This document shows positions 14,986 to 18,986 of a stretch of 64,000 nucleotides of DNA, piece by piece. The first letter of the stretch is position 1. Every line of letters starts with the position of its first letter. Location of the stretch: assembly GCA_965113315.1 (NCBI GenBank), contig OZ220363.1; one strand, written 5' to 3'. Origin of the DNA: Podarcis vaucheri (lineage: Eukaryota). The translations under genes and the position numbers were made by a program. The notes under the pieces are model-generated. The model did not search any database. It worked only from the letters and a program-made list of their open reading frames with translations, and had not been told where the DNA came from.

Positions 14986-16059
14986 ATGATGGAGGACCTC
15001 TGTAGCCACCCCCAACAACACGATCTCATGATGGAAGGGGAGGGAACAGCTGCAGTCGCCTGCGATTCCTGCGCAATGTTTGCCATCTTGCCAAAGGTTG
15101 CAGGCAGCTTTACCTGCAGCAATTGCATGTTGATTGCCCTATTAAAAGACAAAGTCCATCAACTGGAGGAACGTGTAGCTACGCTCCAAAGAATTAGAGA
15201 GCTGGAGCTCTTCTTGGAAGCAACAGAGCACACCGTCCCCACCAAGGAGGAGACAGGGGACTCCCCTGAGAAGGAGGCTTGTTCACCAACACAGGAGCCA
15301 GATATATGGAGAAACGTGACTCAAAGAAGTAGGAGGGCCAGGGTCCACTCTGATTGTCTAGAAATACACAATCGCTTTGAGGTCCTCTCCCCTAGCATGG
15401 AAGACGAAGAGCAGACTCCATTTGAGGATCTCTCCCTCATTACAGTCGATCAGGTATATGAAGACGAGCAGCAAAGTCAGTCCTCAGGGAATGTGCAGGT
15501 GACCTTGGAACGGACAGCTCACGGAAGAACCCCGACCAAACCCAAGAGGAGGCGTGTAGTGGTGATAGGGGATTCCCTACTGAGGGGAACAGAAGCAGTG
15601 ATCTGTGGGCCTGACAAGATGTCTCGGGAAGTGTGCTGTCTCCCCGGGGCTAAGATCCAAGATGTAACTGAACGACTGCAAGGAATCATAAAACCCACTG
15701 ACGAATACCCCTTCCTCTTGGTTCATGTGGGAACCAATGACACTGCAAGCAATAGCCTCCAGAAGATCAAAAGAGACTACGAGGCTCTCGGCAGGAAATT
15801 GAAGCAACTAAATGCACAAATTGTCATCTCGTCTGTCCTCCCAGTTGAACGACGTGGCCCAGGGAGAGAGGGGAAAATAGTGGAAGTGAACAGCTGGCTT
15901 CGCAAATGGTGTAAACAGGAACGGTTTGGATTCTTAGATCACGGACTGCAGTTTCTTGAAGATGGACTTCTGGCAAGCGATGGGCTGCACCTCACAACGG
16001 TTGGGAGAAATGTTTTTGCCAAAAATCTCAGAAACCTCATCAGGAGGGCTTTAAACTGA
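14986..16059 (+). CDS. CR1 ORF1p: CxxC/CxxC putative zinc finger, coiled coil, SGNH/GDSL esterase domain
   Basis: CDSC...CSNC; heptad-like [27 protein letters not shown] blocks [31 protein letters not shown]. First ATG is at 14986 (the track start 14950 is GTG); alternative ATG at 15028. Confidence 0.93.
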
Positions 16060-16064
16060 CTAAT

Positions 16065-18986
16065 GTGGGGGAGGGAGACAATGCTCCTGAAGGTAGGAGT
16101 CTATCAATTAATGAAGATGATCATCCAAATGTCATAGACCAAATGGAGCAAACAGCACGCGGACCTAGTGGTGGGAGGAAAAAATCCTTAAATAAGAGAC
16201 ACGGGGGAATGATTAATGGACTTCAATGTCTGTACACTAATGCGCAAAGCATGGGAAATAAACAAGATGAGCTTGAGCTCTTGGTACAGCAAACAAAATA
16301 TGACATAATAGGCATCACTGAAACCTGGTGGGATAAGTCCCACGATTGGAATGTAATAATGGGGGGATACAATCTATTTCAGAGAAACAGACCAGACAAG
16401 AAAGGAGGAGGAGTGGCGTTATATGTCAGGGATGTGTATACCTGTGAAGAGATCCAAGATTTAGAACCTCAAAGCCAAAGTGAGAGCATTTGGGTCAAAA
16501 TTAAGGGAGAGAAGAATAACAGAGACCTCATTGTGGGAGTTTACTATAGATCCCCAAGCCAAACGGAGGACATAGATGATGCCTTCCTGGAACAGATGGC
16601 CAAGCATGCAAAAGGAAGGGAGATAGTAGTAATGGGGGACTTCAATTACCCGGATATTTGTTGGACGTCAAACTCAGCCAAGAGCATAAGGTCAAACAGA
16701 TTCCTCACTGGCCTTGCAGACAACTTCATTGTCCAGAAAGTGGGAGAAGCAACAAGAGGAACAGCCATTTTAGATCTGGTCCTAACCAATGTTGATGACC
16801 TGGTTAGTGGGGTAGATGTGGAAGGATCATTAGGCGCGAGTGATCATGCTCTTCTGAAGTTTACTATACAGCGGAAAGGAGCAGCCAAGCATACTAGGAC
16901 TCAATTTCTTGACTTTAAGAAAGCCGACTTCATAAAACTTAGGGAAGTGCTGGGTGAGATCCCATGGACAGCAATACTTAAAGGAAAGGGAGTTCATGAT
17001 GGCTGGGAGTTTGTTAAGAGGGAGATAGTAAAAGCACAACGACAGGCAATACCAATGAGACAGAAACATGGAAGGTGCCTAAAGAAGCCAGGGTGGCTAT
17101 ATAAAGAACTTTTAACTGAATTAAGATTAAAAAAGGATGTGTACAAAAAATGGAAAAGGGGGGAAACCACCAAAGAGGAATTCAAACAAATAGCCAGCAC
17201 GTGTAGACACAAAGTCAGAAAAGCTAAAGCACAGAATGAACTCAGGCTTGCTAGAGAGGTTAAAAGCAACAAAAAAGGCTTTTATGGGTATGTTCGTAGC
17301 AAAAGGAAGAACAAAGAAACTGTGGGGTCACTCAGAGGAGAAGATGGTGAAATGCAAACAGGGGACACAGAAAGGGCTGAACTACTCAATGCCTTCTTTG
17401 CCTCAGTCTTCTCCGATAAAGAAAACAATGCCCGACCTGAAGAATTTGGAGCAAATGATTCAGCAAAGGAAACACAGCCCAGAATAACTAAGGAGATAGT
17501 ACAAGAATATTTGGCTAGTTTAGATGTATTCAAGTCTCCAGGGCCAGATGAACTGCATCCAAGAGTATTAAAAGAACTGGCAGATGTGATCTCAGAACCA
17601 CTGGCAGTCATCTTTGAGAATTCCTGGAGAACAGGCGAAGTCCCGGCAGACTGGAGGAGGGCAAATGTTGTCCCTATTTTCAAAAAGGGGAAAAGAGAGG
17701 ACCCAAATAATTACCGCCCAGTCAGTCTGACATCAATACCAGGGAAGATTCTGGAGCAGATCATTAAGCAAACAGTCTGTGAGCACCTAGAAAGGAATGC
17801 TGTGATCACCAATAGTCAGCATGGATTTCTGAAAAATAAGTCATGTCAGACTAACCTGATCTCGTTTTTTGACAGAATTACAAGCCTGGTAGATGAAGGG
17901 AACGCAGTGGATGTAGCTTACCTTGATTTCAGCAAGGCATTTGACAAGGTACCCCATGATATTCTTGTAAAGAAGCTGGTAAAATGCGGTCTTGACTATG
18001 CTACCACTCAGTGGATTTGTAACTGGCTGACTGACCGAACCCAAAGGGTGCTCATCAATGGTTCCTCTTCATCCTGGAGAAGAGTGACTAGTGGGGTGCC
18101 ACAGGGTTCTGTCTTGGGCCCGGTCTTATTCAACATCTTTATCAACGACTTGGATGATGGACTCAAGGGCATCCTGATCAAATTTGCAGATGACACCAAA
18201 CTGGGAGGGGTGGCTAACACCCCAGAGGACAGGATCACACTTCAAAACGACCTTGACAGATTAGAGAACTGGGCAAAAACAAACAAGATGAATTTTAACA
18301 GGGAGAAATGTAAAGTATTGCACTTGGGCAAAAAAAATGAGAGGCACAAATACAAGATGGGTGACACCTGGCTTGAGAGCAGTACATGTGAAAAGGATCT
18401 AGGAGTCTTGGTTGACCACAAACTTGACATGAGCCAACAGTGTGATGCGGCAGCTAAAAAAGCCAATGCAATTCTGGGCTGCATCAATAGGAGTATAGCA
18501 TCTAGATCAAGGGAAGTAATAGTGCCACTGTATTCTGCTCTGGTCAGACCACACCTGGAGTACTGTGTCCAGTTCTGGGCACCACAATTCAAGAGGGACA
18601 CTGACAAACTGGAACGTGTCCAGAGGAGGGCAGCCAAAATGGTCAAAGGCCTGGAAACGATGCCTTATGAGGAACGGCTAAGGGAGCTGGGCATGTTTAG
18701 CCTGCAGAAGAGGAGGTTAAGGGGTGATATGATAGCCATGTTCAAATATATAAAAGGATGTCACATAGAGGAGGGAGAAAGGTTGTTTTCAGCTGCTCCA
18801 GAGAAGTGGACACGGAGCAATGGATCCAAACTACAAGAAAGAAGATTCCACCTAAACATTAGGAAGAACTTCCTGACAGTAAGAGCTGTTCGACAGTGGA
18901 ATTTGCTGCCAAGGAGTGTGGTGGAGTCTCCTTCTTTAGAGGTCTTTAAGCAGAGGCTTGACAACCATATGTCAGGAGTGCTCTGA
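16065..18986 (+). CDS. CR1 ORF2p: APE-type endonuclease plus reverse transcriptase (973 codons, uninterrupted)
   Basis: EN motifs YTNAQS, GITETW, YRSP, MGDFN, LDLVL, SDH; RT motifs [36 protein letters not shown]-like DLGV. True start uncertain: frame open from 15960, GTG at 16065, first ATG at 16143. Confidence 0.96.

What the first reader, a model, noticed from the sequence alone, without database searches (positions are those of the whole stretch)
15960..16145. CR1 ORF1/ORF2 junction has a correctly phased U_UUA_AAC slippery site: candidate -1 programmed ribosomal frameshift
Seen in the sequence: ORF1 ends ...AGG GCT TTA AAC TGA, so T_TTA_AAC (16050-16056) is an X_XXY_YYZ heptamer phased exactly in the ORF1 frame and directly before the stop. 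The -1 frame is stop-free from 15960, reads TTT AAA CTG ACT AAT GTG... and continues into EN-RT to 18986. Between the ORF1 stop and the first ORF2 ATG (16143) there are five ATGs (16063, 16081, 16111, 16117, 16129). All are in the wrong frame (a 24-codon mini-ORF, 16063-16137) and would be expected to intercept scanning or reinitiating ribosomes. Downstream lies a G-rich tract GTGGGGGAGGGAG. Possible pairings are GGGAG 16069-73 with CTCCT 16084-88, AGAC 16076-79 with GTCT 16099-102, or hairpin GCTCCT 16083-88 with AGGAGT 16095-100. Established: UUUAAAC is the coronavirus -1 slippery sequence, whereas human L1 ORF2 is made by termination-reinitiation. Inference: this LINE may make a retrovirus-style ~1,330-aa ORF1-ORF2 fusion (zinc finger, coiled coil, SGNH esterase, EN, RT). 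I recall ORF overlap being noted for some CR1s, so novelty must be checked.
Basis: partly seen in the sequence, partly recalled or inferred. Interest (0 to 1): 0.85.

Follow-up and report, generated by a model that had tools for sequence, protein, structure and literature searches.

The report
Conserved frameshift site in CR1 LINEs
In lizard and bird-like members of a very common jumping-gene family (CR1), the first gene ends in the same seven-letter 'slippery' sequence that coronaviruses use and the second gene continues one letter back, so ribosomes likely slip here to make one fused protein, a route we found no report of for vertebrate LINEs.

Summary
Observation confirmed. The window holds a young, full-length lizard CR1 LINE; about 2,050 genome sites match its junction pattern. 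T_TTA_AAC is phased in ORF1 directly before the stop and ORF2 continues in -1. The site is conserved as DNA, not just as protein: 19 of 20 junctions (four lizard families, 16 bird-like loci) keep T_TTA_AAC, although flanking third codon positions change 2-9 times on the tree. The -1 frame is closed 1-2 codons upstream in 8 of 18 junctions, and an older lizard family has no shared AUG before the endonuclease motif. Best reading: -1 ribosomal frameshifting gives an ORF1-ORF2 fusion of about 1,320 aa (0.8; not measured). Instead a G-run is conserved 10 nt downstream, the spacing of PRRSV's protein-bound stimulator. Against: an in-frame AUG follows the stop closely in 6 of 20 junctions. Ten literature searches found no CR1 report, but the original CR1 papers could not be read. 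The scan noted the same signal before on other DNA (e1-8041403, e1-9568866).

The parts
14688..19070 (+). Full-length young CR1 LINE copy (about 4.4 kb); possible 5-bp target-site duplication AAGTT at 14687-91 and 19071-75
   Evidence: 9 of 29 other copies align from 14688, at about 99-99.8% identity; 645 candidates, 40 scored; the 5-bp duplication is one of six chance-length matches
15031..16059 (+). ORF1, 342 aa (356 aa if it starts at ATG 14989): CX2CX14CX2C finger (15061-15126), likely coiled coil (by eye, not tested), SGNH esterase; ends A-L-N-stop
   Evidence: (PF13472, E 2.6e-9); homologues start at the 15031 Met
16050..16056 (+). Slippery heptamer T_TTA_AAC phased in ORF1; reads TTT AAA C in the -1 frame
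   Evidence: (19 of 20 junctions)
16057..16059 (+). ORF1 stop codon directly 3' of the heptamer
   Evidence: a stop (TAG, TGA or TAA) in 19 of 20 junctions, TGC in one
16067..16078 (+). Conserved G-run and purine tract (GGGGG at +11 to +15 after the heptamer, 10-nt spacer); candidate stimulator
   Evidence: G in 16/19, 19/19, 17/19, 17/18 and 17/18 junctions at +11 to +15; parsimony steps 2,0,1,1,1
16056..16226 (+). Stop-free -1-frame linker (57 codons) from the heptamer to the endonuclease motif; variable in sequence and 35-95 codons long in relatives
16063..16137 (+). 24-codon mini-ORF in the ORF1 frame with five ATGs; not a conserved feature
16143..16145 (+). First in-frame ORF2 ATG (the rival start); its position is not conserved between families
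16227..18986 (+). ORF2 body: AP-type endonuclease (about 16239-16847) and reverse transcriptase (about 17685-18335)
   Evidence: PF03372 E 2.8e-17; PF00078 E 2.4e-34; -1 frame open to the locus end in 28 of 30 copies
18987..19070 (+). 3' UTR ending in short ATTCTAT(G/C)-type repeats
   Evidence: sequence; the CR1 tail motif is recalled, from no call

Best explanation
This CR1 LINE ends ORF1 in a phased U_UUA_AAC-stop site that is conserved across lizard and bird-like CR1 families with ORF2 one base back, and it likely makes its endonuclease/reverse transcriptase by programmed -1 ribosomal frameshifting at that site. Shown: the site, its phase, the open -1 frame, its nucleotide-level conservation, and a G-run 10 nt downstream. 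Inferred: most ribosomes stop and release ORF1p (342 aa); a minority slip back one base on UUA/AAC and read on, giving an ORF1-ORF2 fusion of about 1,318 aa (1,332 from the upstream ATG). This would fix a high ORF1p:RT ratio and tie the RT to the ORF1p coat of its own RNA, as Gag-Pol does. Inferred, weaker: the pause comes from the adjacent stop codon plus something that binds or folds on the G-run (a host G-run-binding protein, ORF1p, or a G-quadruplex), not from a classical pseudoknot.
For: (1) T_TTA_AAC in 19 of 20 junctions; the one exception (L071) is a decayed copy that also has ORF2 out of frame. (2) The codon before is GCT 15, ACT 2, CTT, TCT, TGT: five amino acids, T at the third position in 20 of 20. 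Leu is TTA in 20 of 20, while flanking Leu codons agree between lineages in only 70 of 327 comparisons. (3) Third-position parsimony steps are 0, 0, 1 against 2-9 in 27 flanking columns. (4) 60 of 81 ORF1 homologues, and 60 of the 67 that reach the last helix, end in x-L-N, including named lizard, snake, turtle, frog and bird proteins. (5) The endonuclease motif is in the -1 frame in 9 of 11 junctions where it was found, 8 with no stop, across linkers of 35-95 codons; database proteins also read F-K-L in the ORF2 frame (6 of 120; P0075). (6) The -1 frame is closed 1-2 codons upstream in 8 of 18 junctions and has no upstream ATG in 18 of 18, so the conserved letters cannot be reached from an upstream start. 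(7) Lizard family B has no shared Met between heptamer and endonuclease motif: 12 of 16 scorable copies are in -1, and the only recurring ATG is in 5 of 30 copies at a column that otherwise reads mostly ACA or ACG; L089 has 60 codons without Met or stop. (8) U_UUA_AAC is among the most shifty heptamers on mammalian ribosomes (PMC5009743). (9) No joint inside ORF1 or the start of ORF2 among 3,079 RNA reads of a related organism.
Against: No frameshift, ribosome footprint or fusion peptide has been measured. The canonical 3' stimulator is missing: fold z-scores are -1.8 to +1.0 in 17 junctions, and no stem starting 4-12 nt downstream beats shuffles in 16. An in-frame AUG lies two bases after the stop in 6 of 20 junctions (L061, L063, L066, L069, L071, L094), and this family has one at 16143. 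L1 ORF2 is said to be made independently of its AUG (PMC5009743), so a missing AUG does not exclude reinitiation. Two ORF1 homologues end E-L-N, which cannot be T_TTA_AAC; their DNA was not found. Sixteen of the 20 junctions come from three bird-like lineages, so there are about seven independent lineages; family C is one copy, and the B and D representatives were picked with the site intact (intact heptamer+TAG in 18 of 30 B copies, intact heptamer in 14 of 30 D copies). No natural in-frame ORF1-ORF2 fusion was found among 7,999 long candidates (weak).
Confidence: 0.8

Rival explanations
1. Termination-reinitiation, as described for L1 and SART1: ribosomes stop at the end of ORF1 and restart at a nearby AUG or non-AUG codon in the -1 frame; the conserved heptamer and G-run would be a signal that holds or repositions the ribosome.
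For: It is the reported route for human L1 and SART1 (PMC2881922; PMC3894237). An in-frame AUG follows the stop closely in 6 of 20 junctions; this family keeps ATG 16143, with no variant listed there in four runs. It could coexist with frameshifting in some families.
Against: No start codon position is shared: Met at codon 5, 12, 23, 32, 90 or absent. The CTG overlapping the stop here is CTA in families with TAG or TAA. It does not predict a perfect, phased X_XXY_YYZ heptamer or a fixed -1 relation. Here the next five ATGs after the stop are in the wrong frame.
Confidence: 0.12
2. The letters are conserved for another reason, such as dual protein coding (L-N at the end of ORF1 and F-K-L in ORF2) or an RNA signal for packaging or processing, and ORF2 is made from a spliced or internally started RNA.
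For: F-K-L and G-E-G-D look like protein motifs; RNA reads cover the junction on both strands at low depth, so rare RNAs could be missed.
Against: F-K-L cannot be translated from upstream where the -1 frame is closed 1-2 codons before it (8 of 18). The G before the Gly codon is kept under Val, Glu, Arg, Lys, Met, Leu, Ser codons. No splice joint or clear internal start was listed in 3,079 reads.
Confidence: 0.06
3. Chance or shared ancestry without selection.
For: Phased heptamers occur about 3 per 1,000 codons in ORF2; the junctions are related by descent.
Against: Flanking third positions agree between lineages in only 943 of 2,727 comparisons. Using flanking rates (0.35 x 0.21 x 0.88), keeping all three choices in six further lineages has a chance near 1e-7 (a rough model that treats lineages as independent).
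Confidence: 0.02

Closest known systems
CR1-clade LINEs with type IV esterase ORF1 (CR1 subgroup 7 of PMC4120745)
   Same: Zinc finger/leucine zipper plus SGNH esterase in ORF1; APE and RT in ORF2.
   Different: The passages seen in PMC4120745, PMC3905857, PMC11303007 and bioRxiv 788562 contain no 'frameshift' at all; here the junction carries a conserved -1 signal.
Coronavirus/arterivirus ORF1a/1b and retroviral gag-pol -1 frameshift sites
   Same: U_UUA_AAC is the IBV shift site and among the most shifty (PMC5009743); structural gene first, polymerase in -1.
   Different: No downstream pseudoknot or stable stem was found; the element is a LINE with no protease domain detected, so the fusion would likely stay uncut.
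PRRSV nsp2 protein-stimulated -2/-1 frameshift
   Same: No 3' structure; a conserved single-stranded motif after a 10-nt spacer (PMC4937337).
   Different: Motif is G-rich, not CCCANCUCC; no trans-acting protein is known here.
Dictyostelium TRE5-A and TRE3-A (APE-type non-LTR elements)
   Same: A review figure legend states that both require a -1 frameshift to translate ORF2 (PMC5911963).
   Different: Different ORF1 and host; the primary papers were not seen, so whether it was measured is unknown to me.
Human L1 and silkworm SART1 ORF2 translation
   Same: Bicistronic RNA with ORF2 output dependent on ORF1 translation (PMC2881922).
   Different: They restart translation to give a separate ORF2p; SART1 uses a UAAUG stop-start, which is not present in phase here.

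Membership tests
CR1-clade LINE, esterase-type ORF1 | ORF1 with zinc finger and SGNH esterase | tested here: met
   PF13472; CX2CX14CX2C in the translation
CR1-clade LINE, esterase-type ORF1 | ORF2 with AP endonuclease and reverse transcriptase | tested here: met
   PF03372, PF14529, PF00078
CR1-clade LINE, esterase-type ORF1 | Dispersed, 5'-truncated copies and a short-repeat 3' tail | tested here: met
   14 of 29 other copies start inside ORF1; tail (motif recalled)
CR1-clade LINE, esterase-type ORF1 | Placement in the CR1 clade by RT phylogeny | not tested
   No RT tree with named references was built
Canonical -1 programmed ribosomal frameshift signal | X_XXY_YYZ heptamer phased in the upstream ORF | tested here: met
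Canonical -1 programmed ribosomal frameshift signal | Downstream ORF open in -1 from the site | tested here: met
   9 of 11 junctions
Canonical -1 programmed ribosomal frameshift signal | Conservation at synonymous positions | tested here: met
Canonical -1 programmed ribosomal frameshift signal | Stem-loop or pseudoknot a few nt 3' of the site | tested here: not met
   z -1.8 to +1.0 in 17 junctions; no stem beats shuffles in 16; no dedicated pseudoknot predictor was available
Canonical -1 programmed ribosomal frameshift signal | Measured frameshifting and a trans-frame protein | not testable with these tools
   Needs reporter, ribosome profiling or mass spectrometry
Protein-stimulated frameshift (PRRSV nsp2 type) | Conserved unstructured motif about 10 nt 3' of the site | tested here: met
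   G-run at +11 to +15; spacer compared with PMC4937337; the motif differs
Protein-stimulated frameshift (PRRSV nsp2 type) | Dependence on a trans-acting RNA-binding protein | not testable with these tools
   No binding data
Stop-start reinitiation (SART1/L1 type) | Conserved start codon overlapping or next to the ORF1 stop | tested here: not met
   In-frame AUG next to the stop in 6 of 20 junctions only; not in this element

The most novel reading that the evidence does not exclude
Esterase-type CR1 LINEs across vertebrates make a Gag-Pol-like ORF1-ORF2 fusion by -1 frameshifting that is stimulated not by an RNA pseudoknot but by a G-run 10 nt downstream, bound by a protein (possibly ORF1p itself, which would make RT output self-regulating) or folded as a G-quadruplex.
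Probability: 0.35. Interest if true: 0.9.

Novelty: new variant of a known kind. Interest (0 to 1): 0.78.

Why it matters
How bicistronic LINEs translate ORF2 is called an open question in the reviews read (PMC3894237, PMC2881922, PMC5009743), and the known vertebrate answer is reinitiation. CR1 is the dominant repeat of the chicken genome (PMC2817409 abstract) and abundant in reptiles. A -1 frameshift would mean its RT is made as a fusion with the esterase ORF1p, that database ORF2 proteins are annotated with arbitrary starts, and that CR1 expression constructs need the junction. The signal is short and can be tested in one reporter experiment. The G-run points to a stimulator type with no natural example in the 2016 review (G-quadruplex) or known mainly from viruses (protein-bound motif).

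Tried and rejected
Hairpin or pseudoknot stimulator: rejected. G-quadruplex: predicted in 4 of 17 junctions and not in the window, so open but unsupported. CUG start overlapping the stop: rejected, since it is CTA in TAG/TAA families. Upstream initiation or dual coding: rejected. Splicing: no joint listed; weak, because the reads come from a related organism, cover both strands and 6-12% of each run was read. No RNA holder was listed. Viral contigs gave nothing; bacterial genome contigs gave two weak hits not used. The family C search was captured by another repeat, leaving one copy. The E-L-N pattern gave 26 matches against 31 for the control, and 0 of 20 fetched were CR1. The search for long fused proteins gave 3 chimeric gene models. 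The deep protein search never left the queue (last asked), so breadth beyond the 81 homologues is untested. L069 and L089 were mis-indexed and corrected. Papers not held.
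Full report
What is there. Window 14688-19070 is a full-length, young CR1-type LINE. ORF1 (15031-16059, 342 aa) has a CX2CX14CX2C finger and an SGNH esterase; ORF2 has endonuclease and RT domains. The closest named ORF1 proteins are from lacertid lizards (95% and 82% identity). A 401-base junction query gave 645 candidates, of which 40 were scored and 30 fetched. The -1 frame is open to the locus end in 28 of 30 copies; ORF1 is whole in 15 of 30, and 14 of the rest start inside it. The pattern heptamer+stop+N7+GGGGGRRGG matches 2,052 sites against 5 for the control; nearly all of the 100 listed are this family.

The observation. T_TTA_AAC (16050-56) is phased in ORF1 just before TGA; the -1 frame reads [10 protein letters not shown] and runs into the endonuclease. 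The five ATGs after the stop are in the ORF1 frame. One heptamer proves little, since ORF2 has three phased ones by chance, so the test is conservation.

Protein level. Of 81 ORF1 homologues, 60 end in x-L-N (ALN 45, TLN 7, YLN 3, ELN 2, GLN 2, CLN 1). Of the 67 that reach the last helix, 60 do; the other seven are three read-throughs past A-L-N, two that cross into the ORF2 frame, one A-L-I and one distant A-S-L. Named sources include lizards, a snake, turtles, frogs and birds. The 33-sequence alignment was chosen from proteins ending in L-N, so its invariance is not counted as evidence.

DNA level. I assembled 20 junctions. Four are lizard families from this genome: A (window), B (L125), C (L169) and D (L186), found by patterns that did not include the heptamer. 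Sixteen come from metagenome contigs whose ORF1 resembles named bird proteins. Of 59 such loci, 21 reached the ORF1 end. Four were dropped because the contig ends before or inside the site. L097 was dropped for an upstream break; it does show TTTAAAC, followed by AAG. Result: T_TTA_AAC in 19 of 20. The preceding codon encodes five amino acids yet ends in T in 20 of 20. Between lineages, flanking Leu codons agree in 70 of 327 comparisons and third positions in 943 of 2,727. On a tree of 17 junctions (three with indels left out) the 27 flanking third positions need 2-9 steps, the heptamer's three need 0, 0 and 1. Caveats: there are about seven independent lineages, and the B and D representatives were chosen intact. 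In dead copies the site decays no faster than its flanks: 11 of 209 letters differ from the column's commonest in B (flanks 0.09) and 22 of 201 in D (flanks 0.16 and 0.27). Reads and contigs from related organisms list 39 variant rows in 15900-16300 and none in 16021-16075.

Frame and start codons. The endonuclease motif was found in 11 junctions and lies in -1 in 9, eight without a stop, over linkers of 35-95 codons; the exceptions are the decayed copies L125 and L071. Upstream of the heptamer the -1 frame has no ATG in 18 of 18 correctly indexed junctions and is closed within 1-2 codons in 8. Downstream, Met positions are scattered. In family B, 12 of 16 scorable copies are in -1 and no Met is shared; ATG recurs at one column in 5 of 30 copies where most others read ACA or ACG, the pattern expected from CpG decay (inference). 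So ORF2 there has no AUG before its first endonuclease motif. Against this, 6 of 20 junctions have an in-frame AUG two bases after the stop, which keeps reinitiation alive, at least as a second route.

Stimulator. What is conserved is a G-run at +11 to +15 (G in 16/19, 19/19, 17/19, 17/18, 17/18), followed by a looser purine tract. It is conserved as nucleotides: the Gly codon is mostly GGG and the base before it stays G under seven or more amino acids. The 10-nt spacer equals that of the C-rich, protein-bound motif of PRRSV nsp2, where no 3' structure exists and 9-11 nt is optimal (PMC4937337, passages). A function for the G-run is inference.

Mechanism. Most likely (0.8) ribosomes decoding UUA AAC slip back one base at some frequency and continue with L-T-N-V, giving about 1,318 aa of ORF1p joined through a variable linker to EN-RT; the rest terminate. 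U_UUA_AAC is among the most shifty heptamers, G_UUA is tolerated in equine arteritis virus, and a nearby stop codon is needed for one plant-virus site (PMC5009743, passages). The E-L-N families would need that tolerance; untested. Rivals: reinitiation 0.12, another function with a spliced or internal RNA 0.06, chance 0.02.

Literature and novelty. Ten searches returned no paper describing a CR1 frameshift; searches returned nothing at all. I saw term-matched passages only of PMC3894237, PMC11303007, PMC5009743 (first 300,000 of 449,034 characters held), PMC5911963, PMC5006619, PMC4937337, bioRxiv 788562, PMC4120745, PMC3905857, PMC3747384 and PMC2881922; of PMC2817409 the start of the abstract in a listing; no supplements. 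A -1 frameshift is stated for Dictyostelium TRE5-A and TRE3-A in a review legend (lead from note e1-8041403), so the principle is not new among LINEs. The 1997 turtle and chicken CR1 papers (recalled), Kapitonov and Jurka 2003, Kojima 2005 and Alisch 2006 were not read (four look-ups not held; the chicken paper was not looked up), and Repbase/Dfam notes were not searchable, so an earlier remark cannot be excluded. Two unchecked notes of this scan report the same signal in shark and other animal DNA; they are leads, not support.

Verdict. A real, deeply conserved -1 frameshift-type signal at the CR1 ORF1/ORF2 junction, with a newly noted G-run in place of a pseudoknot. New variant of a known kind; interest 0.78.

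Noticed in passing
window 14688-14855: The 5' UTR begins with a unit of about 152 bases whose start recurs at 14840; RNA reads of a related organism go back 149-153 bases here, suggesting tandem promoter monomers of variable number.
   Followed up: partly
window 14855-14878: A short GC-rich inverted repeat follows the monomer in the 5' UTR.
   Followed up: no
L031-L033, L039, L044, L046, L053 (about 1500-1580): A different repeat class in this genome has a D-G-x-H-L esterase-like frame ending near W-L-Q-stop, without the CR1 junction.
   Followed up: no
L061, L073, L074 (25-50 nt after the heptamer): Some bird-like junctions carry a 6-8 bp hairpin about 25 nt downstream, at a similar distance to the weak hairpin at window 16083-16100; fold z-scores were not significant.
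   Followed up: partly
P0043: A CR1 ORF1 protein is filed in a database under a Klebsiella name, likely host contamination of a short contig.
   Followed up: no
window 22013-22147, 35562-35676, 56187-56335: Three short CR1-related 3' fragments elsewhere in the window; 35562-35676 is 97% identical to this element's 3' end.
   Followed up: no
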